From assembly GCA_000004985.1 (NCBI GenBank), contig GG738904.1: a DNA stretch of 64,000 nt. One strand, written 5' to 3'. Positions 11,990 to 53,915 of this stretch are shown here, in pieces. A model generated the notes under the pieces. That model saw only the letters and a program-made list of their open reading frames with translations. It did no database searches and was not told the DNA's origin. Position numbers and translations under genes: made by a program. Source of the DNA: Naegleria gruberi (lineage: Eukaryota). How positions within the stretch are numbered: the stretch's first letter is position 1; each line of letters begins with the position of its first letter.

Positions 11990-12568
11990 ATGAAGCATTA
12001 TTATATTAGTGGAATGAAACAATTAACATTACTTAATATTGGGAACAATCAAATTGGTGTAGAAGGATCCAAATTCATACATGAAATGAAACAATTAACA
12101 TCACTTGATATATATTATAATGAAATTGGTGTAGAGGGATCCAAATTCATAAGTGATATGAAACAATTAACATCACTTAATATTAATTACAATCGAATTG
12201 GTGATGAAGGAGCCAAATTTATAAGTGAAATGAAACAATTAACATCACTTGATATTTATAACAATGAAATTGGTGTTGAAGGAGTCAAATCAATAAGTGA
12301 AATGAAACAATTAACATCACTTAATATCAGTGGAAATCAAAGTGGTGCCGAAGGAGTCAAATTAATAAGTGAAATGAAACAATTAACATCACTTAGTATT
12401 AATTACAATCGAATTGGTGATGAAGGAGTCAAATTAATAAGTAAAATGAAACAATTAGCATCACTTGATATTAGTGGAAATGGAATTGGTGATGAGGGAG
12501 CCAAATTAATAAGTGAAATGAAACAATTAAAATCGCTTAGTATTCATAACCAACAGATGTTTAAGTAA
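11990..12568 (+). CDS. Leucine-rich-repeat protein made only of about 8 tandem 24-aa RNI-like repeats (MKQLTSLDIxxNxIGxEGxKxISE); possibly a 3' exon or an orphan array
   Basis: The ORF-track protein is a near-perfect array of 24-aa repeats, which equals 72-bp tandem DNA repeats. The frame opens only 3 codons before the ATG (at 11981), immediately after the aminopeptidase fragment. No F-box or other N-terminal domain is found upstream. Confidence 0.45.
   Translation: MKHYYISGMKQLTLLNIGNNQIGVEGSKFIHEMKQLTSLDIYYNEIGVEGSKFISDMKQLTSLNINYNRIGDEGAKFISEMKQLTSLDIYNNEIGVEGVKSISEMKQLTSLNISGNQSGAEGVKLISEMKQLTSLSINYNRIGDEGVKLISKMKQLASLDISGNGIGDEGAKLISEMKQLKSLSIHNQQMFK
12000..12560. repeat. Tandem 72-bp coding repeats (LRR units); the same repeat family recurs at 29680-29990
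   Basis: An identical 33-mer, agtgaaatgaaacaattaacatcacttgatatt, occurs at about 12231 and about 29755. The period is 72 bp. Confidence 0.8.
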
Positions 12569-20930: not shown

Positions 20931-22751
20931 ATGAGAGAAGGAGAAAGTCAATACGGTGATATCTTGTCTGTTTCAGGACCAGTCGTCGTTGCTGAAAAGA
21001 TGGAAGGTGCTGCCATGTACGAACTTGTTCGTGTTGGTAATCAACAACTTGTGGGTGAAATTATTCGTTTGGAAGGTGATACTGCCACAATCCAAGTCTA
21101 CGAAGAAACATCAGGTTTGACTGTTGGTGATCCAGTATTGAGAACTGGACAACCATTGTCTGTTCACTTGGGTCCAGGTATCATGGGTAGTATTTTCGAC
21201 GGTATCCAACGTCCTTTGGAAGTCATTTATAAAAACTGCAATGAAGATATTTACATTCCTAGAGGTATTAACGTAAATTCATTGGATATGGATAAGAACT
21301 GGTTTTTCAACCCAACAAACTTCTCTATTGGTGATAAAATCACTGGAGGTGACATTTTCGGTGAAGTTGAAGAAAATGACTTTATTAATCACAAAATCCT
21401 CCTTCCACCAGGTGCTATGGGTGAAATTACTTATATTGCTAGCCCAGGTAACTATACTCTTAACGATGCTGTCATTGAAGTTGATTTCAATGGTATGAAG
21501 AGACAATTCGGTATGGCCCACTTCTGGCCTGTACGTCAACCTCGTCCAGTTATTGAAAAGTTAGCTGGTGATTATCCAATTTTGACTGGTCAACGTGTTT
21601 TGGATGCTGTCTTCCCTTCTGTCCAAGGTGGTACTTGTGCTATTCCAGGTGCCTTTGGTTGTGGTAAGACTGTCATTTCCCAAGCTATTTCTAAATATTC
21701 TAACTCTGAAGCTATTATCTACGTTGGTTGTGGTGAACGTGGTAACGAAATGGCTGAAGTATTGATGGAATTCCCTCACCTTACTGTTACTAATCAAAAG
21801 ACTGGTAAGGAAGTTTCTATCATGAACAGAACTTGTCTTGTTGCTAACACTTCAAACATGCCTGTTGCTGCCAGAGAAGCTTCTATTTATACTGGTATTA
21901 CATTGTCCGAATATTTCAGAGATATGGGTATGAACGTTGCTATGATGGCTGACTCTACTTCTCGTTGGGCTGAAGCTTTGAGAGAAATTTCTGGTCGTCT
22001 TGCTGAAATGCCTGCTGACTCTGGTTATCCAGCTTATTTGGGTGCTCGTTTGGCTTCTTTCTATGAACGTGCTGGTAAGGTTCGTTGTATTGGTAATCCA
22101 GGTCGTACTGGTTCAATTACTATTGTCGGTGCTGTTTCTCCACCTGGTGGTGACTTTGCCGATCCAGTTACTGCTTCAACTTTGGGTATTGTCCAAGTCT
22201 TTTGGGGTTTGGATAAGAAATTGGCTCAAAGAAAGCACTTCCCTTCAGTCAACTGGCTCATTTCCTACTCTAAATACATTAACTCTTTGGAACCTTTCTA
22301 TGAAAAGGTCGATCCTGAATTCGTTCGTTTGCGTACAATCATGAGAGAAATTCTCCAACAAGAAGAAGATTTGACAGAAATTGTCCAATTGGTCGGTAAG
22401 GACTCACTCCCAGAAAACGATAAGGTTACATTGGAAGTTGCTAAATTATTGAGAGAAGATTTCTTGCAACAAAACTCATTCACTGATTATGACAAGTATT
22501 GTCCATTCTTTAAGACTATTCTCATGTTGCGTAACTTTATTAAATTCTATGAAGATTCTCAAAAGGCTGTTCAAGAATCAGGTGCCAAGATTACATGGAA
22601 CACAATTAAGAATGCCATGACTGATTTGACTTACAAGTTGTCAAGCCAAAAGTTTATCAAGCCATCCCTTGGTGAAGCTGGTGTTAAACAACAACTTAAC
22701 GACCTTTATCAAGAAATTTCAAATGCTTTCAAGAATCTTGAAGAAGAGTAA
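20931..22751 (+). CDS. vatA: V-type proton ATPase catalytic subunit A (606 aa, single exon)
   Basis: Walker [13 protein letters not shown]. Strong family-wide identity (e.g. [62 protein letters not shown]). Codon usage is that of a highly expressed gene. Confidence 0.95.
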
Positions 22752-22836
22752 ATATATAAACCAATTTTGTAATAATATTGAAAATTTAAAAAACACGTGT
22801 TTAATTTTCTTCAATTTAACACAAACAAGGCAAAAA

Positions 22837-25392
22837 ATGTTTAAATTTAGTCATCATCAAAATATTAACAACAGTTCGGATCAACATTTACCTAACCATA
22901 AAGCCGAGAATTTACTGTTATTATCAACAACAACAATACGAGATAAGAAAATGTCATCATCACATTCTACCACCACAACTACTACGCAATATGTACATCA
23001 AAACAAGCCAAAATTTAAATCAAGAAGGCTATTATCGGAATTGTCAGACACTTCTTCACAACTTTCTCGGACAATCACAACTCCAATCATATCTTTCCTT
23101 GTATTTGTATTAATCATTCTTATTTATTTAGATAATTCATCCTCTTCAACATATAACCTCTTCGTCCATGCCTCTACCTCACCAACAGCAACAATAAACA
23201 ATACTCAACAACAGCCTAATACTAATACTAATACAAATACAAATAATAATAATATAGGATCTTCATCATCATCAGCAACAATTGAACAACAATCAACGAC
23301 ATCTAGTACTCCAACAGCAACAGCACCTCCTCCTCCTCGACAACCCAAGATTAATGTTGGATTTAATTTTGCATCGGAAGAAGCAGGAGCCAAGATATTA
23401 TCATCAAATCGAGAGGCAAAAGTATGTTCTTTAAAGATTCGAATATATTGAATTAATTGATTTAGAAAGTTTCAAGGATATTGAATGAAGATAGTGATAA
23501 ATATTGTCTCATTCCAAGATCAGTTCCTAAAAAGTGGATTGTTGTGGAATTATCTGAGGAAATATTAATGAAAAGTATTGCCATTGCCAATTATGAATAT
23601 TATTCATGCTCTTTTAAACATTTTAAGGTTTATGCATCTGTGAAATATCCATGTAAGGAAAAATCAAATTGTTGGGAATTGTTGGGGACTTTTCAAGCAG
23701 CAAATAGTCGAAAAGTTCAACATTTTACATTTAAAAAACCATCCATTACAAGATATGTTAAATTGGAATTTTTATCACATTATGGAGAGAATGAATATTA
23801 TTGTACTTTGAGTTTGTTAAGAGTTCATGGATCTACTTTATTGGAAGATTTGAAAAAATCTCTTCAAAAATCCAGTAAGAAAAATTCAGAATCAACTCAA
23901 ATTACAAATGAACAAACACAATCTAATAATCATGGAAGTATTGAATATGATATTAAGAAGGAAGAGGCAAATTTGAATGAATTAATCAAGGAAAATACTG
24001 AACAGATAGCATCTATTCATAATTCAGATAAGGAGAATTCTAAAAGATTGGATCAATTGGAAGAATCATTTGGAAAATTATTGAATGATGACATTTCAAA
24101 TTTAATTAAGGAAAAGATTACAAACAGTCGTATGAATTCAAAAACTGAATTTTGGGCAATGTTGGTAAAGAAGAAATTTCAAAGTTTTGGATTTTGCAAT
24201 ATTGGACGTTTGAATGATGGGAATGATAGGATATCATTTATCATTGAACAGGAAAGGGATGTCATTAATTGTACATGTTTTAAGGTTTTGAAAAAGGATT
24301 TTATTGAAAGAGTTGGATTTTTAAAGAATAGTGATAAGGGATTTTCACTTTACAATAGAACATTACATTCCAATAATACTATGAATAGTCAAGATATGAA
24401 TACCATTTCAAATAAGAATAGGGAAATTTGGGGAGTTTGTCAATACAGAGTTACTTACTTTAGTTTGAAATGTATCACTAATGGAACACTCAAGTTTGAG
24501 AATATTCAACCAACGAAAAAGCCATCTGCTAAGGATTCTAAGAAGAAGCAAAAAGTAGTTGTTGATGATGAAACAGATGGTTTAGATGAAAAGACTCCTA
24601 TGAAGAGTACTCTTTCTCACTTATTGAATGAAAAGCAAAATATCCTCAAATCCTTATTTAATGCTAGTAAGTATTTCATGATTGAATTAGTTGTTGAGTA
24701 ACGTTTGTAAAAGTTAAAATTCATGGAGAGAATGAAAATATTTTGAAAAATCAAATCAAAGCGCTTGAAATGAAGAATGCCAAGACATTCCAATATATTC
24801 ATCAAATTTTGGAAAAGAATGGAGAAGATCACAAGCTCATTGCCAACAGTTTTATATCACTGACACAGAAGAATAGAGAGCAAATAATTAATGATATGGT
24901 ATGTTTCTTTGTTTGATAGGATAATTAATAATTATTTAGAAAATTGAAATAGAAAACAAACTAAAACAAAAGATTGATCAATTCAGTTCAAGTATGGATC
25001 AAAAGATTTTAAAATTGTCACAAGAAAATATTGAAAGAATGGCTACAATGAGACGTGAAATTTTGAATTATGGATTTATTGCAGTTTTTATTTTGCTCTT
25101 ACTCATTATATCAACGAGAACAGTGCCATACGATGACTCAAAGAGAGCAAGTGAGAAGGATTCTAGCTCTACTTCCACTGCTAATATTAAGCCTCACATA
25201 GAAATTAAGAAGGATGTACCAAAGAAAGTTGGAAATTCATCCTTACTAGGAATTCTATACTCATTTTTCTTCCAAGGAATTAGAGAGCCAGTTAGTCCAG
25301 AGCCCTCCTCTCCACAAAATTATTCTTCCTCATCAGATTCTTTCAGGAATCAATCTAGAAGATCAAAGAGAAAATCTAAAAATCAGGAATAA
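22837..25392 (+). CDS. SUN-domain protein of the SUCO/Slp1 type (N-terminal TM, luminal SUN domain, coiled coil, C-terminal TM); exons 22837-23421, 23466-24666, 24714-24898, 24940-25392
   Basis: The SUN signature spans intron 1: INVGFNFASEEAGAKILSSNREAK|KVSRILNEDSDKYCLIP...WIVVELSEEI...IANYEYYS..FKHFKVYASVKYP...WELLGTF.A.N.R..Q.F...RYVKLEFLSHYGENEYYCTLSLLRVHG. The donors are GTATGT (23422), GTAAGT (24667) and GTATGT (24899). The introns are 44, 47 and 41 nt, and all junctions are phase-consistent with the ORF-track frames (23481, 24994). The first ATG outside vatA is at 22837. The TM segments are IISFLVFVLIILIYL and YGFIAVFILLLLIIS. Confidence 0.75.
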
Positions 25393-26936
25393 ATCTAGGT
25401 ACTTGGACCTCCTCCTCTGTCTTGTTTTGGAGAGAAGCATATTCTTCAATTAAACTTGCAGCATTTTCCAAAGCTTCATCAAAGAGAGCTTCAGGCATGT
25501 ATTCAGTATAGTGGTGAGTGTAAATTTTCTTCTTGTAGAGCTTCTTAAATCTTGTATGCATGTCAGAGAAAACATTTCCAATACAGCAATTATTAGCCAA
25601 GCAAAGAAGAGAGTAAGGTTGATTGTGTGGTGCTACGTGACAAAGACCTACTTTGAATCCTTCTTGGTTCCAATATATCATATCCATTTCACCCTTCATT
25701 TTAGCAATGTTTCTGTTAATATCAGAGATATTTGCTTGTTGGCCTCTTAAAATCAAACCACATGATAAATATTTGTGATGGATTGGATCACATTTCAATA
25801 ATTGATAATCTCTGGAAAGAACATCCTTAAACATTTGATCCATTCTTCTTGGAGGAAGATGCACATCCTTTGGCATCACAAAAGGAGATAAACTGCTGAG
25901 TAAAAATTTCAACCTTGGATAAGGAACCAAATTCATGGTTATTTCGTTAAGATCGACGTTGAGAGAGCCTTCAAATCTCATTGAGCTGGTTAAATTGGTA
26001 AGCAAGGTGGCGGCGATATCGTTCATTTGGTCAAATGGTTTTGAATCTTCTTCTTTTGACAGGGTGCTGGTCACATCCTTTTTCTTTTCGAGTGAATTTA
26101 CAAATTTACACATGTCATATAGTGCTTGATTTTCAATAGGTAAAACACAATCCGAGTTTTCTGATAATTCATTGAGTGATAGTAAGGAGTTATAAGGTGA
26201 GGTGATAACGTCATCGTCTTTGGAAGGGAAAACACAAGCAGAAAATGTATAAATATCAGGAAATTCATCATGGAGGACTTGTGTAATAAAAGATCCCAAA
26301 CCAGAACCTGTACCACCTCCTAAACTATGAAGTAAAAAGAAACTCTGAATCGAATCACATTCTTCAACTTCCCATCTAATTTTCTCCAATATTTCCTCAT
26401 GATATTTAGGTCCATACACTTCATGACCATGTGCCCAATTGTTTCCTGAACCACTCACATCAGAAATAACTTGTCTATCTCTATTAAACAATCCTCCAAT
26501 ATCACTTTTAAATATTTGATTCACAACTCCTTCTTCCATGTCCACTAGTAATGCTCTTGCTTTAATATCTGGCATGCCGGCCCTTCTCGATTTCTGCTCC
26601 ATATCCCATTTGAAAAAGGTTGATAACGGTTCATCATACAAAATATCGGGATTTTGATTTTTCTTATTTTGAAACACTGCAGCATGTTCCCTCAATACTA
26701 AATCCCACATTCTTCCTCCGATTTGATTACCACATTGTCCCACTTGAATTGTTCTTTTTATTATTGTTTGTTAAAATTAATATTAATATTATATAATATT
26801 GCCGATCGTTTTTGTTCATCATCAAAAGTTGTATTTTCCCAACATATAACAATAAGGCATGGTAATAAAATTTGATTTTGCGTGTTTAAAAATACAAAGC
26901 CTTGCAATAAAAAACATACACTATTTCTCGAGGCAT
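25376..26936 (-). CDS. tubE: Epsilon-tubulin; exons 26936-26920 (MPREIV) and 26753-25376; 166-nt intron
   Basis: MPREIV|TIQVGQCGNQIGGRMWDLVLREHAAV compares with human TUBE1 MTQSVVVQVGQCGNQIGCCFWDLALREHAAV. Further matches are ARALLVDMEEGVVNQIF, ISGSGNNWAHGH, LGGGTGSGLGSF, SPYNSLLSLNELSENSDCVLPIENQAL, LVPYPRLKFLLSSLSPF and ALANNCCI. The ORF-track start is GTG with an in-frame TAA 9 codons upstream. The upstream ATG (complement of 26934-26936) and GTATGT donor (complement of 26914-26919) restore the canonical tubulin N-terminus. Exon-1 coordinates are approximate. Confidence 0.85.
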
Positions 26937-27273
26937 TTTTTTCAAGTATTTAGTAATGGTATTTTTGTAATTTCAAGAATAATATAAATTATTGAATTAA
27001 ATAGTGTAATTGAGTTTACAAAATACTTTAAAGGTGTAACTAAGGTTAAGGAAAAAACAACTTGGAAAAAAATAACAGTCCAATGTTGATAGTAACAAAG
27101 AGTTTGGAATGGATGAAGCAAGATAACAAAGATACATTGTTTAATGGTTTCAGGAAAGAAACAACAGATTCACTCTGCTTACATGGAATGGAAATGCTTT
27201 TTCCTTTTTCAATAGAGATTCCGAATTTAGTAAGTTTAAATAGTTTAATAGTATTTACAAAATATTGAAAAGT

Positions 27274-28959
27274 TTAAAATCTGACAATATCATACTTTGC
27301 ACTACATTCCTTTTGTTTTTCTTTGGAAATGAGAGGACACTTTTCCAACCATAAAACTTGTAATTCAAGTTTGGAGTTTACAATTGTATCAATGGTCTTA
27401 TTTGTGAGGCGTGCATTTCCACTTAGGAATAGTCTGGTGAGTTGAGGTTGTTGTTCAATGAGTTTTTGAATGGCATCATCTGTAAAATCATTTCCAATAA
27501 CTCTGAATGCTTGTAAACATGGAATTTGTTCTTGAGATAATTTAGTTTCCAATATAAATTCATCAGTCAAGTTACATTTCTCAAGAGTGAGATAGGTAAT
27601 CTCACATGGATGAGCAATAATCCTTTTGGCTTCTTGATTTCCAATTGGGTTGGCACTCAAATTGAGGAAATCCAATTTTTTAGGTAAATGTTCTAATAAC
27701 CAATCAATGTTGGTAATTTTGTTATCTTCCAATTTGATTAATTTCAAGTTTTCATATCTACTTGGATCTATGGTAATATAATTATCATCTCCAACGTTTG
27801 GGAATGTTATGGCATTGGATACAAGTTGAAGTTTGTGAAGTTTAGAACAATTTTCTAAAATATAACTAAATCCATCAAAGGTTATTCCACACTGATTCAA
27901 TTTCAAAATCTTGACAGTTTTACATATTGATTTGACAAGTGTCTTGACACCAACATCTGAAAGGTTTGAACAATAATTGAAATCAACAGTTTCCAAATTA
28001 TCAAATTGGAAATTTTTTAAATTTTGTAAAGCAGTTCCAACCATCAAATTCTTGCTCATTTCCAAGTATTTAAGCTGATTCAACAATTGAGCATTGTTTG
28101 GATGGAATAGTGACTTTAGTCCTTGGCTTCTTATTGAACACGCTGACAATTTCAAAGTTTCCAAATTTGGGCAATTAGTTTTAGACAAGGCATTAGCTCC
28201 AACGTCAGTCAATTTGTAACACTTATCAAAACATAATTCTTTACAGTTCAGATAAGCAAATTTAAATGATTCTTTTGTAATATTTTGATTTTCCAGATAG
28301 AGAATAACCAATTTAGGAAACTTGAATAAATTACATAATTGATGTTCATCAGAAAATCCATAAATTGATGATAATACTATTTGTCTCAATTCTGAATCCT
28401 CATAAACAATTCCATCAAAATTAAAATCAACTAAATTTTGAGTTTGGAATCCAGTAGATACATATAAAAATCTTAATTTAGGTAAAGTATTAAATAAAAT
28501 CTTGAAGGAAGTGTCATAGACAGTGTTCAACTTTAAAAATCTCAAAGATTTACAATGAGATAATGATTCACACATATTAGAATTGAAGTGTTTTTGACTT
28601 CCTGTATAAACAAATCTCTTCAATTGTTGATTCTTCTCAAGGGCCAAACAATTTTCATCCCGAATCTGAAATTGTTCAATTTTAATTCCAGTCGCTAATT
28701 TAAATATCGAATTGATTAAATAATTATCAATTTCCAACTTGGATTTAATATGAAAATGTTTATACAAAAAATAAATTAATCTATTAGAATCCCAATTTTT
28801 ATATCCGAAAAGAATATGTAGTAAATTAGCATTTGATTGTAAAGTTTCGAATTGTTTCTTTTTTAATGTGAGAAAGGAATAAATTTCCAGAATGACATCC
28901 ATTGGAAGAATGGAATAATCGGCTTCCTCCGATTCACCGTGTTCTTGATGTGATTGCAT
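27274..28959 (-). CDS. F-box/LRR-repeat protein (FBXL-type, 561 aa)
   Basis: The N-terminal F-box-like segment is ILPMDVILEIYSFLTLKK. Multiple Cys-containing LRRs follow: CPNLETLKLSACSIRSQGLKSL; CSNLSDVGVKTLVKSICKTVKILKLNQCGITFDGFSYILENCSKLHKLQL; LTLEKCNLTDEFI. Confidence 0.7.
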   Translation of the reverse strand: MQSHQEHGESEEADYSILPMDVILEIYSFLTLKKKQFETLQSNANLLHILFGYKNWDSNRLIYFLYKHFHIKSKLEIDNYLINSIFKLATGIKIEQFQIRDENCLALEKNQQLKRFVYTGSQKHFNSNMCESLSHCKSLRFLKLNTVYDTSFKILFNTLPKLRFLYVSTGFQTQNLVDFNFDGIVYEDSELRQIVLSSIYGFSDEHQLCNLFKFPKLVILYLENQNITKESFKFAYLNCKELCFDKCYKLTDVGANALSKTNCPNLETLKLSACSIRSQGLKSLFHPNNAQLLNQLKYLEMSKNLMVGTALQNLKNFQFDNLETVDFNYCSNLSDVGVKTLVKSICKTVKILKLNQCGITFDGFSYILENCSKLHKLQLVSNAITFPNVGDDNYITIDPSRYENLKLIKLEDNKITNIDWLLEHLPKKLDFLNLSANPIGNQEAKRIIAHPCEITYLTLEKCNLTDEFILETKLSQEQIPCLQAFRVIGNDFTDDAIQKLIEQQPQLTRLFLSGNARLTNKTIDTIVNSKLELQVLWLEKCPLISKEKQKECSAKYDIVRF

Positions 28960-29321
28960 TTTTTTTGTTTTTTTTAAAAATTCAAAATTATTTTAAATTT
29001 TTATTGCATTTTAAACTTGAAAATCTCAATTTCAAGATTGTTAAAGTTATTTTTAGACAATTTTTAATACATGATTAGTACAAAACATCAAGATGGATTA
29101 GGTTTTGAAGAGTTTGAATTCAATATAAGTTTACAAAATCTGTGTCAACCTCCAATGTGAATCAATTCATACCCCTCATAGTATTTATGCAGAGGTTCAC
29201 ATATTTTCAAGATCCAACGAACAATCGTTAAAAAACTTGTTAATTTTCTGAGTCAGGAATGAGAAATAATTGTGACAAGTAATCACGTTTCTTGTGTTGT
29301 TGCATCGCACAAATTTAAAAA

Positions 29322-29995
29322 ATGAGCAAACGAAAAAGACAAGATTTTGAAAATCATCAATTAATTAATTCGGTGAAGGAAATATTCACTAACAATAGTT
29401 TGGAAGAGAAATCAAAAAAGAGTGGGAAATTCCAACAAGAAATATTTTCAGATGATGTTTGTTTTGAAATAATTTCCATGCTCGATGATTCGTGGTTTAT
29501 TTTGAATAATTGTTCCTTGATTTCAAAACAATTCTTTAATGTGATCAAGGAACGCAATTTAAAAAAAAAATTACAGAGAAACGAGTTGAATTATTCATGA
29601 AAAGTCAGTTTAGGAATAGAATTATTAATCTTAAAGTTTTTAGATATTTGCTTGACTCTTTTGAAAAACTCAAATTCATTAGTGATATGAAACGATTAAC
29701 GTCACTTGATATTTCTTTCAATCAAATTGGTGTACAAGGGGTCAAATTCATTAGTGAAATGAAACAATTAACATCACTTGATATTTCTTTCAATCAAGCT
29801 AGTGATGAAGGTGCTAAATACATAAGTGAAATGAAACAATTAACATCACTTAATATTACTAATAATGAAATTGGTGATGAAGGAGCTAAATACATTAGTG
29901 AAATGAAACAATTAATATCACTTATTATATCTAGGAATCAAATTGGTGATGAAGGTGCTAAGTACATTAGTGAAATGACACCACTAGGAAAATAA
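29322..29995 (+). CDS. Small F-box + RNI-like LRR protein; two ORF-track pieces (29322-29600, 29597-29995) are probably one CDS interrupted by a frameshift at an A10 tract (29561-29570)
   Basis: The F-box-like segment is DDVCFEIISMLDDSWFILNNCSLISKQFFNVI. Downstream there are four or more 24-aa repeats (MKQLTSLDISFNQ.SDEGAKYISE) from the same 72-bp repeat family as 12000-12560. Reading through the A10 run with a 1-nt shift gives a continuous ...ERNLKKK(K)ITEKRVELFMKSQFRN... It is head-to-head with the 27274-28959 F-box/LRR gene. Confidence 0.5.
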
Positions 29996-30279
29996 GCTGC
30001 GTTGGGTATTGGAAAACAAAAAAACACATTGATAAACCAAGTGGGTGGTAAATATCTGCTCCTATTCTTCATCCAAAAGGTGTGCACCATTTTCGTCGAT
30101 GTGAAATGGATGTTAAAGTCGTAAATGGTGACACAAGACCCAAAATTACAAATGGATATTACGAATGCTTGAAACGTTTGACGAATTCTTTCAGCATCAA
30201 GTATTCGAAAGGAAGTCAGTGTATTCAATATTAAATACAACATTCAAAAAGAAATTGCAATCCCAAACTACACTACAAT

Positions 30280-31601
30280 ATGAAAACAAGCTTTTTTGCT
30301 ATTGTATTGGCGATGATTTTGCTTTGTGTCATGGTTCTAACCACACATGCAACAACACTTACCACTCAACATGTTGAGATGGCAAACAACATTCAAAAAT
30401 TTGAATCTACAAAGAGAAAGATGGATGATACATGTACATGTGTTGATTGTAGGAGTCATGAATTTGTTAATGGTGTATTTGTGAAAGCTGTTTCTTGTTC
30501 AGATAGTAAATCCCCAGTAATTGGTTCCATCAAAATGGAAATAGATGGTTTTCTTTTTGATGAAACCTTTTCGTATTACATTATTGATAATGTTGATGAC
30601 TTGTTCATGTTCAAGGCAGGCAAACAGTTTGCCTATGACATTATCAAAAGTAGACCAATAGTCAAAACTGTTCTCAAGATACAACAATTTCAAGATATGA
30701 TAATACACACACTGTTTATGTTGTTGCAAAAGCTAACGACATGGACTTTGCTGTTTTGTTACATGAAATAGAGGGTTATTGCACATCAAGGGCCGCCAAT
30801 GATGTAGCCTATGATCTCTCTGAACCAAATCCTAAATATTACTATGGGACTAGTGTCAGAGTAGATATTACATTTGTTAATCTACAATATTCAACTGTAG
30901 ATTTCTACCTTCAAGGTACAATTAGTGTTCAAAATGCCAAAACACCACAACCAACAGCTGTTGTAAGGGATGGAGTTGGTAGACTTATTGTGAATCTCAA
31001 TGAAGAAGAATTTACTAATGGTAATGAACTTTTACTTGAATTCACACCACGTAGTTTCTTCAATGATCAAAAGATTAGAAACATTCGAATCAAAATTCCT
31101 GTTGTTAAAAAGGCATCTAAGGGAGAATTACTTATTCACAATAATCAATTGATTTATTCTGGCAAAGAATTCACATTGTATTTCAAATTATTTGATAGTG
31201 ATAACAAACCAACACCAGTTATTGATATTCCACTCCTTTCCATTTCATCTGCAAATCCTAACGACAAGTTATATTGTCAATTGACAAACTATATTAACGG
31301 TTATGGTTTTGCAACATGTGCTAATATTGATACAAGTGGTCAACATTCACTTGTTTTAAAGTATAATAATGTGGTATTGGACGAATATGAAATTACTGTA
31401 GAAGAGAATCCATATCAATTTGTCAATGAAGCCATTGTCTTGCTATTGGTCATTTTGGTTATTGTCTCATTGTTGATTCTCTGTGTTGGAATAGTTTCTT
31501 TCGTATTCTTCTATAAGAAACTTAATAAGCAAAATGGAATGAATACAAGACCTGGTCGTGTGAATAGAGAAGAAGATGCTGAAGAATTGGATAATTTGTA
31601 A
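30280..31601 (+). CDS. Type I membrane protein (signal peptide, large extracellular region, one C-terminal TM, short basic tail); two overlapping ORFs (30280-30771, 30741-31601) probably joined by a 1-nt frameshift near 30695-30705
   Basis: The signal peptide is MKTSFFAIVLAMILLCVMVLTTHA. The TM is AIVLLLVILVIVSLLILCVGIVSFVFFY, followed by KKLNKQNG... Both frames are open across 30654-30771. The upstream frame degenerates into hydrophobic nonsense (TLFMLLQKLTTWTLLFCYMK*), while the downstream frame reads as natural sequence (THTVYVVAKANDMDFAVLLHEIEGYC). No splice signals are present. Confidence 0.45.
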
Positions 31602-31630
31602 ACTCTATTCTCAAATGTGTTTTAATAAAT

Positions 31631-32293
31631 TTATTTTCTGTAAGCAGCACAAACACCACTTGTACACAAATTTTCACAATTTTGTGGCGCATCAATTAGT
31701 GATCTATCGAATGGTTTCGTATTATAAGTTTCAACCTTAAAATCCCATTGTTTCAAAATATGTTTAGGTCCCCACAATTCATTAAATCTTATTGGAATTC
31801 TAATCTTATCACTATTAGTACAATAATAATGATTCAAATATTGACCTTGTTTCGTCCAATGTTGAACTTGATATCCTAACAAATTTTCAACACCAACAAA
31901 TGTTGAATTCTTTTCCATCCAATTTCCCTTCACTGCTCCAAATTGATTTTCACATTTACAACAGAAATTAACTTTTGGAAATTGTAAATAAGACCAACCA
32001 TTAGTAGCAAATATAACATTACACTGTTGATCACTTCCATATGGTAATCCAGTACACATTTCATCATATTGTGGTGGAAAATGTTCATATCTTTCAGCAT
32101 TTAAATCGGAATCATGATAATAAGCAAATAACCAATTAGTAATTGGGTCAGGATTTGTTAAATTAACTAAAACTCGGAATGTTGAAACTCCTCCCCATAA
32201 TGGTGGTAATGGTATTGTTGCAGAAGCAAGAGAAACAATATTCAATGTAATGATGAAACTACACAATAATAGTAGGACTAGAGATTTCGACAT
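31631..32293 (-). CDS. Secreted cysteine-containing protein, 220 aa, unknown function (weak ependymin-related resemblance)
   Basis: N-terminal signal peptide MSKSLVLLLLCSFIITLNIVSLASA, then 10 cysteines and no TM. The W-G-G/...L.AYYHD pattern is only loosely EPDR-like. Confidence 0.5.
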   Translation of the reverse strand: MSKSLVLLLLCSFIITLNIVSLASATIPLPPLWGGVSTFRVLVNLTNPDPITNWLFAYYHDSDLNAERYEHFPPQYDEMCTGLPYGSDQQCNVIFATNGWSYLQFPKVNFCCKCENQFGAVKGNWMEKNSTFVGVENLLGYQVQHWTKQGQYLNHYYCTNSDKIRIPIRFNELWGPKHILKQWDFKVETYNTKPFDRSLIDAPQNCENLCTSGVCAAYRK

Positions 32294-32472
32294 TTTTTTA
32301 GGAGTTTAATTGAACTAACTCCGCGTTCAATCAATTTCGTAATCTCATTAATAACACAGTAGACCATAAATTATTTACACATTAACTTTGTTAATTTTTG
32401 TTCAATCTCTTAGAAACGCTGAAATATTTAACCTTTTACCTTCCAATTATTTGATTATCAACCAAATAAGAA

Positions 32473-32990
32473 TTAAGGTTTATTGAAAGTGTTAGAGTTG
32501 TTTGTCTGGGTTATAGTTGTGGTATTAAGTATATTCATAACATTATTAATGTTTGATTGATAAATTTTTGTAATGTTTGATAATAAACTTGGTGTGTTCC
32601 TATTTTGATAAATGATATATTTGAGCAATTGGATCAATCCAGGTAAGAAGTATGCTTTGTAGATTGGTTCAACATTTTCAGTATCATTAACTAATTTTTC
32701 AAAATATCTGATCACACTGTTGCCATATTCTTTGAAAGTTTGAGATGAATTAATAATTCTTGAAATTCTTGAAAATCTTCAACTATGATTCTTCTAACAA
32801 GTTTTGCAATAAAAATAGCCATTGCATAATTATCTTGCACTATGCCAAGTGTATGGAAATTTAAATGCATCAGGACGTGTTATGGTTTTTCTTTCTTCAT
32901 TGTCTGAAGAGCCCTGTAATTGAAATGCTGTATTAAATCGGATATTACTAAATCACAAACCAACCCATCAGCCATGTTACATTCTTTGAG
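32473..32990 (-). CDS. Hypothetical protein, fragmented across two frames (ORF 32473-32715 plus an upstream open frame MHLNFHTLGIVQDNYAMAIFIAKLVRRIIVEDFQEFQELLIHLKLSKNMATV ending at about 32716)
   Basis: Two adjacent open frames on the reverse strand abut at 32715/32716. There are no recognisable domains. This is either a frameshifted gene or non-coding. Confidence 0.2.
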
Positions 32991-33174
32991 AATGAATTGA
33001 CCAATTATGTCACCACCATTGCTTTTTCTTGTTAGAATATTGTCAATTTAATTATCGAAATGTAATATATTCAATTTTAAATGTAATTGTTGTAAAATTG
33101 TTAAACATTGACCTATCCATCTAATAGTGATGAGTAATTTAATCTTTGGTGTGTTTGGGGTCAATATTTTAATA

Positions 33175-34238
33175 TTATTTAGTTCTCGTTGACAGATTCT
33201 TAGATTCAAGAGGTTCACCTGCGTTAAATTGTATGTTATTGACATGATCGAATGTATGTTGTAAAATCATCAAAGACTTTGATAAACCTTGAACTGTGGT
33301 CAAGTCATAAATATCAGAAACTTTCAAAGCATATGTAAAAGGGGGAAGAGACTGACCATTTACAAGATCAAATTCGTTGTGGAATTTCAATCTCATTTCT
33401 AACCACACTATTGTAGTACCTGCAACTAAAGAACCAAACACACGAATCTTCTCCATATTATCACATGTTAGCAATTGATTGGTGGATAATCTTTCAATCC
33501 AGTTTTTAAATATACATCTCATGTATAGTACTAGATTACACACATCCTTGTGGAGAAAAACATCTTCGTTTTCTAATTCATATCTCTGAACCTCACATAG
33601 AAGGAATGTTTCAAAAGTACAACCATCACCAAAAACATTCTTGTGGGAAAGGAAAAAGTCAGGGAATAAATCTTGGTTGTTCTCAAGTTTGGTATGCTTC
33701 GTCAACCATGCAGCTCTTTTTGTCAAAGATTCAGATAGGTAGTATTCGTTGGAAACGAAAAGGGAGATAGTTTGTTATTGTATTGATTGGACTTGGTGAA
33801 AGACCTTAAAAAAGAAACTTCACTTTTTTGATTTTGCTCAGCCTCAAATATACTTTCAAGTAGTTCACCTTCTTTTAACTTTTCTTCTGTTTTTTGAAAT
33901 TCAAACACATCCTGAAAGTGAGTTTTAAATAATAGTAAATAACAGGATCTGTGCATGTAACTTACTTGATCCAGTTCCACCAAAAGTTGTGAAAAGAAGA
34001 GTTGTTGAATTTCGTCCAAGTCCCAACGATTGAAACTTGCATTTAAAACTTTCACCTTATGTTGTAAAGTTGAAAGTTCACCAAATGTTTCCTCTGTTTT
34101 CATATCAATATCAAGTGGTGTGAGTTCAGAATAATAATCTACATATTTCTTAGCCTTTCTAGGATTCTCCACTTGTTCATCACCTCTTTTCCTCTTTTTG
34201 AAGTTAATGAAACGAATGATTGCTAATTCTTCTGACAA
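33175..34238 (-). CDS. Hypothetical nuclear protein (about 354 aa) with a basic NLS-like N-terminus (FKKRKRGDEQVENPRKAKK); two ORFs (33723-34238, 33175-33726) joined by an apparent 1-nt frameshift at about 33725-33760
   Basis: Both frames are open across the junction (…PFSFPTNTTYLNL* versus LFVSNEYYLSESLTKRAAWLTKH…). The ATG is at 34238. No confident domain assignment. Confidence 0.45.
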
Positions 34239-34955
34239 GCAGATTGTTATTTATTCACCTAACAAATATACTTCATATATTACTCTTTTGCTTACCAATG
34301 TTAAATTCCTGTGATTGATACAAACTTCTTAACTAGTTACACACAGAATAATACACATTATTTGATTATCAAGCTGCCATTGAGTAAGTTATTTTTGTTT
34401 ACTCTCCAAGTTCAACTATATGATACATGATGAATGAGCCACCATTCTTCAATATCAAATTTTCCACTTGTTTTTTCTCCGATCCTCTAAGAGTTTGAAA
34501 GTAGTAAGTAGCCTTGAAACATTTTTTTTGAAAATTGGCGGTTTCGTTCTTAGTAGTTAATAAGGCACAAATTTTGAATTACAACTTTTAATAACAGTGA
34601 ATAATAATAGCCAATTCAAATAATACAAGAAACCAATTCTTTAATTCTAAAATGTAGTTGATCTTCTATAAATAGAAGAGACAAGTTATTTTCTGAGGTG
34701 CCTACTTTCATTGATGCATTCTTGATTCTCATTGAGATTCAGGCTATTTTTTAAAAGTTCCATAAATCAAACTACAACGACAATAAAAAAAAAGCCTCAA
34801 AACTGACATCTCTCAACAGCTCATTTGAAATTTCCCTTTTTTGCGCACAATTTGTGATTCAAAGAATCAAAACTGAACCTGCAATTATGATACAAAGAAA
34901 CAAACCTCCATAAAATATTTGTAGTTTTGTATTTTTGAAGATAGTATAAGAAGAA

Positions 34956-36860
34956 ATGTCATTCTCAGTAGTTTCGAATAGTTGTTCTTCAGCTGTTACT
35001 ACTAATGGACCACCATTAGAAAGTGTAAATATTGAAATGAGGTTGGATAGTGAGGTGTCAATGTATTCTGTTTCATTAGATGGTATTTATGGAAATGTGT
35101 TATCTGAAGCAAATGTTGTCTCATCACCTGCTTTGAATAGTTGTGTTTCGTCCTTTTCATTGAAGAAACCTTCTCCATTGGATCAACGCTTGGATTTGTT
35201 GAAGTTTGTGAAACAATTTGTCAGAGTAGAGAAGAATGAAAGTAAGGAAGTAATTGAAGAGGAATTGAGAATTGTTTCAACTTGGAGTCAACAAGATATG
35301 ATGAACACTCCATCAGTGGCAAGCATGTCAAGTTTAAACTCTGAAATGAGTTTAATGTCAATGACCTCTGACAGATCATTAGCAAATATGATCAAAGATG
35401 ATTATTTCAAAGTTCCAGAAAAGAAGGAAAAGAAGAATGGTAAAAGAAAGAGATCTCTAATTTATGATAAGAAGACAGGCATATTCTTGTCAGTATTCAA
35501 TTTGATTAATGATGTTTTGAGTCCAGGTACTTTGAGTATGTCTCAAATGACAGCTCAATCAGGTATTTTCTCAAGTTTGATTCTTACCGTGTTCTTTGGA
35601 TTGGTAACTTTATTTACTTTAATGATTTTATATGAATTGAGAAGAAAGTATTTGAAAACTAGTTTATTGGAATTGTCAGAATTGGCATTTGGTAAACCAG
35701 GTGTTGTCATTGCAAGTATTCCAATTCTATTATTCAACTTTGGTGGGGCATTAGGCATGTTTATCATGTTTGGGCATTTAGTTCCAGATTTACTTTTACT
35801 AGTTGAAAAGAATTTCAGTTCTATTCTTAGTGGATATTCTTTCCTTTTTAGTAGAGAATCTGTATTGATAATTTTGACAATTATTATGATTCCATTTGCT
35901 TTGAGAAAGAATTTGGGAAGTTACGCAATTACTTCATTCATTTCAGTTAGCTCCGTATTGCTGGTTGGAATTTGGTTGGCAATTGAAAAGATGACAGGTC
36001 AAAGAGCTCTCATTCCATCTTCTAATGCATTTGATTTTGCAAAGAGTGAAATTTTATCTGCTTTTGGAGCTTTGGCATTTATCTATGTTTGCCACGATAT
36101 AGTATTTCACATATTTTCCAATTTAAGAAGACCTACCAGATTTAGATTCTTTCTAGTGGCACTATTTGTAGTGATTATTACAATCCTAACTATTACATGT
36201 GTTGGAATGAGTGGATATTTAATATTTTATGATAAGTGTCTAGATGACGCCAATGTATTGAACTTGTTTCCTTTCAATGATCCAATGGCAATCATTGCAA
36301 GAATAATCATTTCCCTCAATATTATCATGTCTATTCCTTATGCATTATTCATGCCAAGGGATTGTTTGCATACATTGTTAAAGACAATTTTACCAAAAGT
36401 TTACAAGCGAATTCAAAAGACAAAAGTGAGAAGAAACATTCTTCATGTAATTTTGACAATGACAGTTTTATTGACATCTTTTGGAGTGGCTATTGGTGTT
36501 ACTGATTTAGGCATTGTAGCAGATTTATTTGGAGCAGTAGCTGCTAGTTCATTAGCATATATTATTCCACCAAGTCTTTATTTAAAATTGGAATTTTCAT
36601 TTGGATGTTCATTAAAGAGATCAAATGATGAAAATATTGAACTTTCCAACACAAAATCAGTAACCGAAACCAATAACACTATTATTGAACATCCATTGGA
36701 AGAGTATTACGCAAAGAAGAGCAATGATGCACATTCAAATTCTCTCAGACAACAATTATTTAGAATTCTAATTGGAGTTACTTGTATGATGGTTTTGCTA
36801 TTGGGTATTTTCATTCTAGTTGGAACCATTACAAGTGTAATTATTCATAAATTTGTCTAA
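34956..36860 (+). CDS. Amino-acid transporter of the Aa_trans (SLC32/36/38, AVT-like) family with an approximately 170-aa Ser-rich N-terminal extension
   Basis: The hallmark N-terminal segment of the transporter domain is FNLINDVLSPGTLSMSQMTAQSGIFSSLILTVFFGLVTLFTLMILYEL. About 10-11 predicted TM helices follow. It is a single 634-codon ORF. Confidence 0.8.
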   Translation: MSFSVVSNSCSSAVTTNGPPLESVNIEMRLDSEVSMYSVSLDGIYGNVLSEANVVSSPALNSCVSSFSLKKPSPLDQRLDLLKFVKQFVRVEKNESKEVIEEELRIVSTWSQQDMMNTPSVASMSSLNSEMSLMSMTSDRSLANMIKDDYFKVPEKKEKKNGKRKRSLIYDKKTGIFLSVFNLINDVLSPGTLSMSQMTAQSGIFSSLILTVFFGLVTLFTLMILYELRRKYLKTSLLELSELAFGKPGVVIASIPILLFNFGGALGMFIMFGHLVPDLLLLVEKNFSSILSGYSFLFSRESVLIILTIIMIPFALRKNLGSYAITSFISVSSVLLVGIWLAIEKMTGQRALIPSSNAFDFAKSEILSAFGALAFIYVCHDIVFHIFSNLRRPTRFRFFLVALFVVIITILTITCVGMSGYLIFYDKCLDDANVLNLFPFNDPMAIIARIIISLNIIMSIPYALFMPRDCLHTLLKTILPKVYKRIQKTKVRRNILHVILTMTVLLTSFGVAIGVTDLGIVADLFGAVAASSLAYIIPPSLYLKLEFSFGCSLKRSNDENIELSNTKSVTETNNTIIEHPLEEYYAKKSNDAHSNSLRQQLFRILIGVTCMMVLLLGIFILVGTITSVIIHKFV

Positions 36861-37457
36861 TTGACTAGTCTTTTCTAACTTTCTTGAACATTTGTTCTCT
36901 TTATGGACATGCACTATAGTTAACAAGTTTCCAATCATGAGAGAGTTTCATTCATTGAAATTCAACAAGAAATTCAAAGGAGGGATTGAGTAAGAAATTC
37001 GAAACAGTTGAAACATTTATTGAGGATTTGGTAGAATTAGTGGTGAGAAAACCAATCATTGATGCTTTCTATTGTGCTCCTGTGGAACATATGAGAGTTT
37101 ATTTTCATTCTTGAAAGGAAAAGTTGAATAATTAGCTCCTCATTATAAAATTGATGCTTTCTTCATCATTAAAATTAATTAATATTTTTATTTTTAATAA
37201 GAACTATTTAAATTGTCCTCATCGGAAATGATAAGAATGGACTAATTAACTTCAACTCTGATATTTATTCAAACAACTTCCGATATCCTATCTATAATAA
37301 ACATATTGTTATTCAACCAACTCTTCAAGTTTTCAAAGCCTTCGATTATTAATTGTGTTGCTGATGATTCTACTCTTTTGTTGAACTTAAAAAAAATCAA
37401 CAACGTTGGTTAGAAGAACAAATACATAAACAACAAACAATAATTAATATATAACAA

Positions 37458-38831
37458 ATGGCATTAGGAAGTGAAAAATCGGATACACCAATGGAAAATG
37501 GAGAAAATTATGATTTGAGTGAGGATTATATAACTGATGATGAAGGTGATGAAGCCTTTATTAATGAAGAAGATATTGAAGAAGTAGCAGGAGAATATGG
37601 TGAAGATGATGCACCACCAAGTGATGAAGAAGATAATGAAGGAGAAGAATGGGTAGATGATGATGGAATGGAAGATGAAAGACCACTCCGAAATGTACCA
37701 GATCATTCTAATGCTTCATTCAATGAACATACAGATGCAATTTATTCAATTAGTGTTATTAATGATGGAAATGATAAATTTATTTGTGCTACTTCATCAG
37801 GAGATGATTCTGCATATTTGTGGACTTTTGATACAACAACAATGACAACAAGTCCAATTGCAAAACTTGCTGGACATACTGATACAGTTTTACAATCAAA
37901 ATTCAATTTTGATAAGACAATTTTAGCAACTGCTGCTATGGATGGAACTGTTAAACTTTGGAATGCCAAGTCAGGTGCTTTTATTTCTTCATTAGAAGGT
38001 CCAGGTGATAGTATTGAATGGATTGATTGGCATCCAAGAGGTAATATTATCATTGGTGGTTCACAAGATGCTACTACATGGATGTGGAATACTCAAAAAG
38101 AAGTTTGTTTGAATGTATTTTCTGGTCACTCTGAAAGTGTTACAAATGGTTGTTTCACAACTGATGGAAAATTAATGGTAACTGCTTCTGATGATGCTAC
38201 TGTTAAAATTTGGAATCCAAAAACTGCTGAATGTATTGTCAATTACTCTGCTCATGAAAAGAATATCAAATCATTCTGTGAAGAACCAATTACATCTTTG
38301 AAATGTAGTACTCTTAATCCTTCAGTATTTTTATGTGGTTCTTTGGATGGTTCTATTGCACTTTGTCAATTGGAACAACAAAGAGTTATTAGCCATCTTA
38401 AAAACAAACATGCTCATACAAATTCAGTTGAAGAAGTTTTATTCCATCCAGAAAATCAAAGTTTACTTGTTTCTTGTGGTATGGATGGTCAAATTGTTGT
38501 ATGGGATACTAATGCTGGATCAGCTCGTCTAGTTTTAAAGAATTATCCAATAATAGAAAATCCAGAACTCGGATCAAGCAGTAGCAGTGATTTGAACTTT
38601 GATACAAATGGTACTCTTACTGGTGTTACACGTGCCTTCTTTGATTCTACTCAATCATACATTATTTATTCAGGTGATATTTTAGGTAATATTCTCAGTT
38701 GGGATATCAGAACTGGAAAAGTTTTGAAATTATATCAAGGACATGCTGATGTTGTTTCTGATTTATCTCAATCATCAAAGTATATCTTTTCAACTTCAGA
38801 AGACAAGAGAGCACTCATTTTCAATAAATAA
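37458..38831 (+). CDS. WD40-repeat protein with an acidic N-terminus; AAMP/Sqt1-like
   Basis: The N-terminus is D/E-rich (DDEGDEAFINEEDIEEVAGEYGEDDAPPSDEEDNEGEEWVDDDGMEDE). At least 6 WD repeats follow (LAGHTDTVLQSKFN...DGTVKLWN; FSGHSESVTNGCFT...DATVKIWN; ...GQIVVWD). An acidic N-terminal segment followed by WD40 repeats is the AAMP/Sqt1 architecture. Confidence 0.8.
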   Translation: MALGSEKSDTPMENGENYDLSEDYITDDEGDEAFINEEDIEEVAGEYGEDDAPPSDEEDNEGEEWVDDDGMEDERPLRNVPDHSNASFNEHTDAIYSISVINDGNDKFICATSSGDDSAYLWTFDTTTMTTSPIAKLAGHTDTVLQSKFNFDKTILATAAMDGTVKLWNAKSGAFISSLEGPGDSIEWIDWHPRGNIIIGGSQDATTWMWNTQKEVCLNVFSGHSESVTNGCFTTDGKLMVTASDDATVKIWNPKTAECIVNYSAHEKNIKSFCEEPITSLKCSTLNPSVFLCGSLDGSIALCQLEQQRVISHLKNKHAHTNSVEEVLFHPENQSLLVSCGMDGQIVVWDTNAGSARLVLKNYPIIENPELGSSSSSDLNFDTNGTLTGVTRAFFDSTQSYIIYSGDILGNILSWDIRTGKVLKLYQGHADVVSDLSQSSKYIFSTSEDKRALIFNK

Positions 38832-39793: not shown

Positions 39794-40034
39794 TTTTTTT
39801 AAATTTTTAAAGCTGTATTTTTACGCGCCCTCAATAACAGTTACAGATGTTTGCTGTTTATTGTTCGTTTTTTTTAATTGTCAGCTGAAGAACAGTGAAT
39901 GGAAATTTACAGCCCTTTTCTTTGCTGTCATCTATGAGTGGTCAATTTTTGAATCTAGTAAAATGATTCAAAAGAATTCTTTAGATATAAAAGTATTGAG
40001 CATTTAAAAGAGATACTAGCAGTAGTAGTTTTTA

Positions 40035-53794: not shown

Positions 53795-53915
53795 TCTCTT
53801 GTGTTGTCATTTTTTTTAAAGTAAATTTGATAAAAATATTTACTTGAAATTGTTCCCGCCAAAATCAACTACAATTTTTGCGCCAAAGGCTAAATTAAAA
53901 ATCCTCATAAAAAAA

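What the first reader, a model, noticed from the sequence alone, without database searches (positions are those of the whole stretch)
25376..26936. Epsilon-tubulin gene with a micro first exon restoring the MPREI N-terminus
The ORF-track product starts at a GTG with an in-frame stop 9 codons upstream. A 17-nt first exon (ATG CCT CGA GAA ATA GT, with a GTATGT donor) located 166 nt upstream splices in phase. The result is MPREIVTIQVGQCGNQIG, the canonical tubulin N-terminus. Epsilon-tubulin is normally associated with centriole/basal-body triplet microtubules. If this genome is from an acentriolar dictyostelid, as its other properties suggest, retention of epsilon-tubulin is notable. If it is from a flagellated relative, it is a useful lineage marker.
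Basis: partly seen in the sequence, partly recalled or inferred. Interest (0 to 1): 0.5.

Follow-up and report, generated by a model that had tools for sequence, protein, structure and literature searches.

The report
Naegleria gruberi epsilon-tubulin gene, already annotated
This is the epsilon-tubulin gene of the amoeboflagellate Naegleria gruberi; its 17-base first exon is real, but the spliced product matches the public protein record exactly and the gene is expected in an organism that builds basal bodies, so the finding is correct but ordinary.

Summary
On the minus strand there is a 17-nt exon (26936..26920, ATGCCTCGAGAAATAGT). It is followed by a 166-nt GT..AG intron (26919..26754) and a 1378-nt second exon (26753..25376). 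Spliced, they give a 464-aa protein starting MPREIVTIQVGQCGNQIG.

That protein is identical over all 464 residues to XP_002671650.1 / EFC38906.1 (NAEGRDRAFT_44774, UniProt D2VWK0 "Epsilon tubulin") of Naegleria gruberi. Ten of ten neighbouring ORFs are also exact N. gruberi proteins from one 297-kb scaffold. The genome is therefore a heterolobosean amoeboflagellate, not a dictyostelid.

The same 17-nt exon and phase-2 intron occur in N. fowleri, in an environmental Naegleria-like contig and in Willaertia magna. Intron lengths there are 124, 40 and 62 nt, and exon 1 differs only by changes that keep MPREI.

In a 130-sequence tree the protein falls in the epsilon clade with 100% bootstrap. That clade excludes delta, alpha, beta and gamma. 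Zeta was not sampled.

Published work already states that the Naegleria genome encodes gamma-, delta- and epsilon-tubulin and SAS-6, and that delta and epsilon were predicted as basal-body proteins from gene induction during differentiation. Verdict: real, correctly read, already known, low interest.

The parts
26920..26936 (-). Exon 1, a 17-nt micro-exon (ATG CCT CGA GAA ATA GT). It encodes M-P-R-E-I and the first two bases of codon 6 (Val).
   Evidence: The same 17-nt exon, with changes that keep MPREI (CCT/CCA/CCG, CGA/AGA, GAA/GAG, ATA/ATT/ATC), is present in N. fowleri, environmental contig L004 and Willaertia magna. It is the only match to the degenerate pattern in the window, with 0 expected by chance.
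26937..26945 (-). A-rich context just upstream of the start codon (TTGAAAAAA|ATG).
   Evidence: A-rich runs also precede the ATG in the three other heterolobosean loci (…TTAAAAAAA, …GACAAAAA, …AAATAAAA). A role in translation initiation is inferred, not tested.
26754..26919 (-). Spliceosomal intron of 166 nt in phase 2. The donor is GTATGT and the 3' end is ...AATAAAAAG. GC content is 23%, against 36% in the CDS.
   Evidence: The intron is at the same position in N. fowleri (124 nt), L004 (40 nt) and W. magna (62 nt), but its length differs in each. Three of 19 SNPs against a 98.9%-identical metagenome contig fall in its last 31 nt.
25376..26753 (-). Exon 2, covering codons 6 to 464 plus the TAG stop (25378..25376). 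It holds the T1 loop GQCGNQ (aa 11-16), GNNWA (aa 109-113), the tubulin signature GGGTGSG (aa 151-157) and the Tubulin_C domain.
   Evidence: Pfam Tubulin 2.1e-55 (aa 4-222) and Tubulin_C 1.1e-23 (aa 285-405). The spliced product is identical to XP_002671650.1.

Best explanation
The region is the two-exon epsilon-tubulin gene of Naegleria gruberi (NAEGRDRAFT_44774; XP_002671650.1; UniProt D2VWK0).

A 17-nt first exon supplies the start codon and the residues MPREI(V). These are inferred to form the start of the first beta-strand, which leads into the GTP-binding T1 loop (GQCGNQ). A 166-nt phase-2 GT-AG intron is removed, and the rest of the protein comes from one long exon.

Shown here: the gene structure, its identity with the public model, conservation of the micro-exon in four heterolobosean lineages, and placement in the epsilon clade.

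Inferred from the literature on orthologues: the protein acts with delta-tubulin in building or stabilising the triplet microtubules of the two basal bodies. Naegleria assembles these de novo when the amoeba turns into a flagellate. Reviews of the published expression profiling list epsilon-tubulin among the basal-body proteins predicted from that induction.
For: (1) Gene structure. The splice is exact and in phase. Only one GT..AG pair reproduces the public protein.

(2) Identity. The 464-aa spliced product is identical to P0121 = XP_002671650.1 / EFC38906.1 'Epsilon tubulin' of N. gruberi. Ten of ten neighbouring ORFs are exact N. gruberi proteins on the same 297,120-bp scaffold, with adjacent accessions EFC38905 and EFC38907.

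(3) Comparative support for the micro-exon. The same 17-nt exon and phase-2 intron are present in N. fowleri, environmental contig L004 and Willaertia magna. Intron lengths are 124, 40 and 62 nt, and exon 1 differs only by changes that keep MPREI. Klebsormidium epsilon-tubulin shares the first 18 residues, MPREIVTIQVGQCGNQIG. The Gonium and Paramecium proteins begin MPRELV.

(4) Selection. All 13 SNPs in exon 2 against a 98.9%-identical metagenome contig are synonymous.

(5) Family.
- All top hits that carry a tubulin-class name are epsilon-tubulins, at 500-600 bits and 50-56% identity.
- Beta, alpha and gamma give 201-218 bits at about 30% identity; delta gives 153-157 bits.
- In an NJ tree of 130 sequences, 415 columns and 200 bootstraps, the query sits in the 22-member epsilon clade with 100% support. 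That clade excludes a 105-member delta clade (also 100%) and alpha, beta and gamma.
- Reference sequences were verified against PDB or source names.

(6) Biology.
- Loss of epsilon or delta gives singlet-only or unstable centrioles in human cells, Chlamydomonas, Paramecium and Tetrahymena (PMC12704290; PMC11896610).
Against: No transcript data could be examined, so the splice junction rests on comparative and protein-homology evidence and on the existing JGI/NCBI gene model. No zeta-tubulin reference could be obtained, so zeta is excluded only indirectly: the query groups with orthologues named TUBE1, TUE1 or epsilon in their source records. The tree is neighbour-joining with a simple Kimura distance, not maximum likelihood. 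The function in Naegleria is inferred from orthologues and published expression profiling; there is no gene knock-out in this organism.
Confidence: 0.97

Rival explanations
1. There is no micro-exon. The protein is the 455-aa ORF product starting at the GTG at 26743, or it starts at the first internal ATG (Met22 of the spliced protein).
For: A prokaryote-style gene caller produced exactly this 455-aa product from an ENA metagenome contig (P0001). Similar read-through N-termini were called for P0002 and P0003.
Against: - GTG is not a normal eukaryotic start codon.
- A GTG-start product would lack residues 1-9, and a Met22 start would remove the GQCGNQ GTP-binding loop.
- The read-through N-termini of P0002 and P0003 (MLNSTLQ..., MTSSERT...) are unrelated to each other and are translated intron.
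- The MPREI exon is conserved upstream in all four lineages.
- The curated NCBI models for N. gruberi, N. fowleri and W. magna all begin MPREI.
Confidence: 0.02
2. The gene is a tubulin of another class (delta, zeta or a lineage-specific divergent tubulin) that has been mislabelled epsilon.
For: Zeta-tubulin references were not sampled. Automatic names in databases can be wrong; for example, one Gryllus delta-cluster member is named 'gamma-1'.
Against: There is 100% bootstrap support for a clade with 17 source-named epsilon-tubulins from animals, green algae and plants, ciliates and oomycetes. That clade is separate from a 100%-supported delta clade and from alpha, beta and gamma. BLASTP gives 462-499 bits to named epsilons, against 153-218 bits to the other classes. 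A published six-family classification places delta and zeta together as the sister of epsilon (PMC4202323).
Confidence: 0.01
3. The locus is from an acentriolar dictyostelid that has unexpectedly kept epsilon-tubulin.
For: Only the superficial resemblance of an AT-rich (30.6% GC), gene-dense, intron-poor genome.
Against: Eleven proteins encoded in the window are residue-for-residue identical to N. gruberi NEG-M records on one scaffold. The nearest relatives are N. fowleri (80%) and Willaertia magna (76%). N. gruberi is in Discoba/Heterolobosea.
Confidence: 0

Closest known systems
Naegleria gruberi epsilon tubulin, NAEGRDRAFT_44774 (XP_002671650.1 / EFC38906.1 / UniProt D2VWK0)
   Same: It is identical over all 464 residues, so it has the same two-exon model. 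The flanking genes are the adjacent accessions on the same scaffold.
   Different: Nothing differs. This is the same gene.
Naegleria fowleri FDP41_009049 (XP_044557514.1) and Willaertia magna ABK040_010870 orthologues
   Same: They are 80% and 76% identical. Both have the same 17-nt first exon and phase-2 intron position. In N. fowleri the neighbours also match: V-ATPase A, a Sad1/UNC gene and an LRR gene.
   Different: Intron length (124 and 62 nt, against 166 nt). The donor is GTAAGT rather than GTATGT. The W. magna gene needs more than one intron, because no single-intron model reproduced its protein, and its neighbours differ.
Epsilon-tubulins studied experimentally (human TUBE1, Chlamydomonas BLD2/TUE1, Paramecium and Tetrahymena epsilon-tubulin)
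   Same: It lies in the same orthologous clade as proteins named epsilon-tubulin, TUBE1 or TUE1 from other animals, green algae and ciliates, at about 50-56% identity and with the same domain pair and GTP-binding motifs. The expected role is in triplet-microtubule formation or stability in centrioles and basal bodies (PMC12704290).
   Different: Naegleria builds its basal bodies de novo in a cell that has none, and it does not use them in mitosis (PMC4819266). The intron position is not shared. The first introns in Gonium, Nematostella and Klebsormidium lie at about nt 35, 25 and 48, and Paramecium has none near the 5' end.

Membership tests
Epsilon-tubulin (tubulin superfamily) | Tubulin/FtsZ GTPase domain followed by the tubulin C-terminal domain | tested here: met
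   PF00091 at 2.1e-55 (aa 4-222, full-length profile) and PF03953 at 1.1e-23 (aa 285-405).
Epsilon-tubulin (tubulin superfamily) | Intact nucleotide-binding motifs (T1 GQCGNQ, tubulin signature GGGTGSG) | tested here: met
   GQCGNQ at aa 11-16, GNNWA at aa 109-113 and GGGTGSG at aa 151-157.
Epsilon-tubulin (tubulin superfamily) | Groups with recognised epsilon-tubulins to the exclusion of alpha, beta, gamma and delta | tested here: met
   NJ tree of 130 sequences and 415 columns. The epsilon clade (22 sequences, 17 of them source-named epsilon) has bootstrap 1.00. The delta clade (105 sequences) also has 1.00. Alpha, beta and gamma lie outside both. BLASTP gives 462-499 bits to epsilons and 153-218 bits to the other classes.
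Epsilon-tubulin (tubulin superfamily) | Distinct from zeta-tubulin | not tested
   No zeta reference could be obtained. The 150 representatives nearest to human delta formed one clade with no well-supported deep split. All sampled members that carry a tubulin-class name are called delta, apart from one cluster member mislabelled gamma-1. Zeta is excluded only indirectly, through published topology (delta plus zeta as sister to epsilon; PMC4202323).
Epsilon-tubulin (tubulin superfamily) | Found in organisms with centrioles or basal bodies, usually together with delta-tubulin | tested here: met
   The organism is identified as N. gruberi. The literature reports triplet-microtubule basal bodies and gamma-, delta- and epsilon-tubulin plus SAS-6 in its genome (PMC4819266). 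The delta gene itself is outside this window and was not seen here.
Epsilon-tubulin (tubulin superfamily) | Centriolar localisation and a requirement for triplet microtubules | not testable with these tools
   Known only for orthologues (PMC12704290; PMC11896610).
Spliceosomal GT-AG intron with a micro first exon | GT donor, AG acceptor, a restored reading frame, and a position conserved in relatives while the intron sequence and length vary | tested here: met
   Donor GTATGT, acceptor AG, phase 2. The position is the same in four heterolobosean loci, with intron lengths of 166, 124, 40 and 62 nt.
Spliceosomal GT-AG intron with a micro first exon | Transcript (junction-read) evidence | not testable with these tools
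   No RNA-seq or EST data were accessible. The public gene model uses this junction.
   Eleven exact matches to Naegleria gruberi proteins. The lineage is Discoba; Heterolobosea.

The most novel reading that the evidence does not exclude
The start-proximal 17-nt exon and its phase-2 intron have been kept at exactly this position across Naegleria and Willaertia, although these genomes are intron-poor. The position is not shared with the green-algal, cnidarian or ciliate epsilon-tubulin genes checked. The intron could therefore have a regulatory role, for example in intron-dependent expression during the rapid induction of basal-body genes. In Naegleria, the conserved 17-nt tail-to-tail CDS overlap with the neighbouring SUN-domain gene might likewise couple the two genes. 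Nothing here tests either idea.
Probability: 0.07. Interest if true: 0.25.

Novelty: already known. Interest (0 to 1): 0.06.

Why it matters
It matters little beyond quality control. The gene, its splice model and its epsilon-tubulin identity are already in GenBank and UniProt. The presence of epsilon-tubulin in Naegleria is published and expected for an organism with triplet-microtubule basal bodies. It opens no question about centriole loss, because the organism is not acentriolar in its flagellate stage.

Tried and rejected
- **Ciliate code.** Under translation table 6 the ORF would run 14 codons further to a TGA. I rejected this because the CDS has 20 CAA/CAG codons and no internal TAA or TAG, and because the public protein ends at ...RFIPDF.
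- **Exact look-up of the spliced protein's encoding contig.** Nothing is on record for P0121. Identity was established through the cluster look-up instead.
- **Zeta-tubulin references.** A scan of the 50%-identity representatives with human delta as query returned 150 sequences. They formed one delta clade with no separable zeta group, so zeta remains unsampled. The third homology search was not spent, because I had no zeta bait sequence.
- **Fritz-Laylin & Cande 2010 (PMC2987438).** The paper is not held. A full-text search for the locus tag and accessions found nothing. The 2016 review PMC4819266 was used instead.
- **An ancestral intron position.** The first-intron positions in the Gonium, Nematostella, Klebsormidium and Paramecium epsilon genes all differ from the heterolobosean one, so I dropped the idea.
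- **PDB.** No solved epsilon or delta structure appeared among the 60 matches listed. The best match is beta-tubulin at about 252 bits.
- **RNA genes.** Rfam and tRNA scans of the window found only one tRNA-Phe, far from the gene.
Full report
**Observation**

I read the region on the minus strand and assembled the proposed exons by script.
- Exon 1 is 26936..26920 (ATGCCTCGAGAAATAGT, 17 nt).
- The intron is 26919..26754. It is 166 nt long, has the donor GTATGT, ends ...AATAAAAAG, and is 23% GC.
- Exon 2 is 26753..25376 and ends in a TAG stop.

The joined CDS is 1395 nt, in frame, and encodes 464 aa beginning MPREIVTIQVGQCGNQIG.

The ORF-only product is 455 aa and starts at the GTG at 26743. 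An in-frame TAA lies upstream, with nine sense codons between it and the GTG.

A degenerate pattern for MPREI plus a part-codon plus a GTRWGT donor occurs once in the window, at this site. It occurred in none of 100 shuffles. Only one GT..AG pair reproduces the public protein.

**What it is**

Pfam finds a full-length Tubulin GTPase domain (2.1e-55) and Tubulin_C (1.1e-23).

The homology search returned 120 listed hits. Every hit that carries a tubulin-class name is an epsilon-tubulin. They come from animals, green algae and land plants, ciliates and oomycetes, at 500-600 bits and about 50-56% identity. The nearest named relative is Willaertia magna at 76%.

The cluster look-up showed that the 100%-identical cluster contains XP_002671650.1 / EFC38906.1. 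This is NAEGRDRAFT_44774, UniProt D2VWK0 "Epsilon tubulin", from Naegleria gruberi, and is 464 aa long. Its sequence is identical to my spliced product. The public gene model therefore already contains the micro-exon.

**Organism**

Ten long ORFs elsewhere in the window are all exact matches to N. gruberi proteins on the same 297,120-bp scaffold. They include the accessions flanking the tubulin gene, EFC38905 and EFC38907. N. gruberi is in Discoba, Heterolobosea, so the window is not from a dictyostelid.

**Comparative support for the splice**

I fetched four related loci: N. fowleri (L001), an essentially identical Logan contig (L005), a JGI metagenome contig from a third Naegleria-like lineage (L004, protein 81% identical) and Willaertia magna (L002).

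All four have a 17-nt first exon encoding MPREI plus two bases. A GTAAGT donor follows it, and the acceptor restores ...I/V-T-I/V/L-Q-V/I-GQCGNQ. Intron lengths are 124, 124, 40 and 62 nt. Exon 1 differs only by changes that keep MPREI (CCT/CCA/CCG, CGA/AGA, GAA/GAG, ATA/ATT/ATC). An A-rich run precedes each ATG.

The prokaryote-style protein calls for these contigs (P0002, P0003) have unrelated N-termini, which are translated intron.

The ENA metagenome contig L003 is 98.9% identical to the window. Thirteen of its 19 differences lie in exon 2, and all 13 are synonymous.

Klebsormidium epsilon-tubulin shares the first 18 residues of the predicted protein. The Gonium and Paramecium proteins begin MPRELV.

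**Tubulin class**

I needed references from the other tubulin classes.
- The delta bait matched "tubulin delta chain [Homo sapiens]" at 100%.
- The gamma and alpha baits were 100% identical to PDB chains 7qj0_U and 11yj_A0.
- The beta bait had one error, which I corrected to match 4i4t_B.

A scan of the 50%-identity representative library with human delta as query gave 150 diverse relatives. Ten of these were looked up. All that carry a tubulin-class name are called delta, and they come from insects, lamprey and Klebsormidium. The one exception is a Gryllus cluster member labelled gamma-1.

I aligned 130 sequences with MAFFT and kept the 415 columns with at least 70% occupancy. I then built a neighbour-joining tree on Kimura distances with 200 bootstraps.
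- The three heterolobosean proteins group together at 100%.
- All 22 epsilon sequences form a clade at 100%.
- The 105 delta sequences form a separate clade at 100%.
- Epsilon plus delta group together at 86.5%.
- Alpha, beta and gamma lie outside.

Pairwise BLASTP agrees with the tree. The query gives 462-499 bits to most named epsilons, 201-218 bits to alpha, beta and gamma, and 153-157 bits to delta. The best PDB match is beta-tubulin at about 252 bits.

Zeta-tubulin was not sampled. It is excluded only indirectly, because published trees place delta plus zeta as the sister of epsilon (PMC4202323).

**Mechanism**

Shown here:
- A two-exon gene whose first exon provides the initiator Met and residues 1-5.
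- An intact GQCGNQ loop (aa 11-16) and GGGTGSG signature (aa 151-157).
- Purifying selection on the coding sequence.

That exon 1 encodes the start of strand S1 is inferred from general tubulin structure and was not modelled here.

Inferred from the literature:
- The Naegleria genome encodes gamma-, delta- and epsilon-tubulin and SAS-6.
- Its two basal bodies have canonical triplets and a cartwheel, and are assembled de novo during differentiation.
[quoted passage not shown] 2010 and Fritz-Laylin & Cande 2010).
- In human cells, loss of TUBE1, TUBD1, TEDC1 or TEDC2 gives singlet-only centrioles that fall apart in mitosis. Loss of epsilon or delta in Chlamydomonas, Paramecium and Tetrahymena damages basal-body triplets (PMC12704290; PMC11896610).
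- Delta, epsilon and zeta tubulins occur only in eukaryotes with cilia or basal bodies (PMC4202323; PMC3160578).

The most likely function is therefore a role, together with delta-tubulin, in forming or stabilising basal-body triplet microtubules in the flagellate stage.

**Comparison and novelty**

This is not a relative of a known gene. It is the known gene, with the known model.

The intron position is heterolobosean-specific among the taxa checked. First introns lie at about nt 35 in Gonium, nt 25 in Nematostella and nt 48 in Klebsormidium, and Paramecium has none near the 5' end.

**Verdict**

The feature is real and was read correctly. It is already annotated and published, and its presence is biologically expected. 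Interest is low.

Noticed in passing
window 24994..25392 (+), overlapping the tubulin CDS end at 25376..25392: A convergent 132-aa ORF overlaps the 3' end of the epsilon-tubulin CDS by 17 nt, tail to tail. It has a coiled-coil-like start, a hydrophobic stretch (ILNYGFIAVFILLLLIIS) and a basic tail ending KNQE. It lies downstream of, and on the same strand as, the Sad1/UNC (SUN) domain ORF at 23481..24701 (Pfam 1.1e-27), so it looks like the last exon of a mid-SUN-type gene. The ORF, a conserved LL.ILYSFF motif and the same 17-nt overlap recur in contigs L003, L004 and L005. Willaertia has a different downstream gene.
   Followed up: partly
window about 20931..38831, compared with L001 (N. fowleri): Gene content around the tubulin gene is largely conserved between N. 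gruberi and N. fowleri: V-ATPase subunit A, the SUN-domain gene, epsilon-tubulin, an LRR protein and a WD40 protein. N. fowleri has an extra RCC1-like gene between the tubulin and the LRR gene.
   Followed up: partly
L003 (ENA metagenome ERZ929261, contig k127_410808) = window 25023..26784: An environmental metagenome holds a contig 98.9% identical to this N. gruberi locus, which suggests a close strain in the sample. Its bacterial-style gene call produced the truncated GTG-start 455-aa 'protein' now stored in the protein collection as P0001. This is a concrete example of how the ORF-track artefact arises.
   Followed up: yes
window 12000..12544 and 29672..29978: Two arrays of 72-nt tandem repeats (7.6 and 4.3 copies, 83-85% matches) have nearly the same unit. 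On inspection, the unit appears to code for 24-residue leucine-rich repeats (...ISEMKQLTSLNI..NQIGDEGAK...). This suggests two members of an LRR protein family in the window.
   Followed up: no
window 50463..50535 (-): A single tRNA-Phe (GAA), found by ARAGORN and by Rfam (67.9 bits). It is the only RNA-family match in the window.
   Followed up: no
window 40001..42000, 52001..54000, 58001..64000: These stretches have much lower GC (19-26%) than the window mean of 30.6%. The first coincides largely with a 665-aa ORF (40035..42032, -) that is an exact match to an N. gruberi 'predicted protein'. I did not examine why the composition drops.
   Followed up: no
window 1944..10217 (+): A very long uninterrupted ORF of 2757 aa. 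I did not characterise it.
   Followed up: no
L006 (Gonium), L007 (Nematostella), L009 (Klebsormidium), L008 (Paramecium): Epsilon-tubulin genes in three distant lineages also have an intron within the first 50 nt of the CDS. The positions differ (about nt 35, 25 and 48), and none matches the heterolobosean nt-17 position. Paramecium has no early intron.
   Followed up: partly
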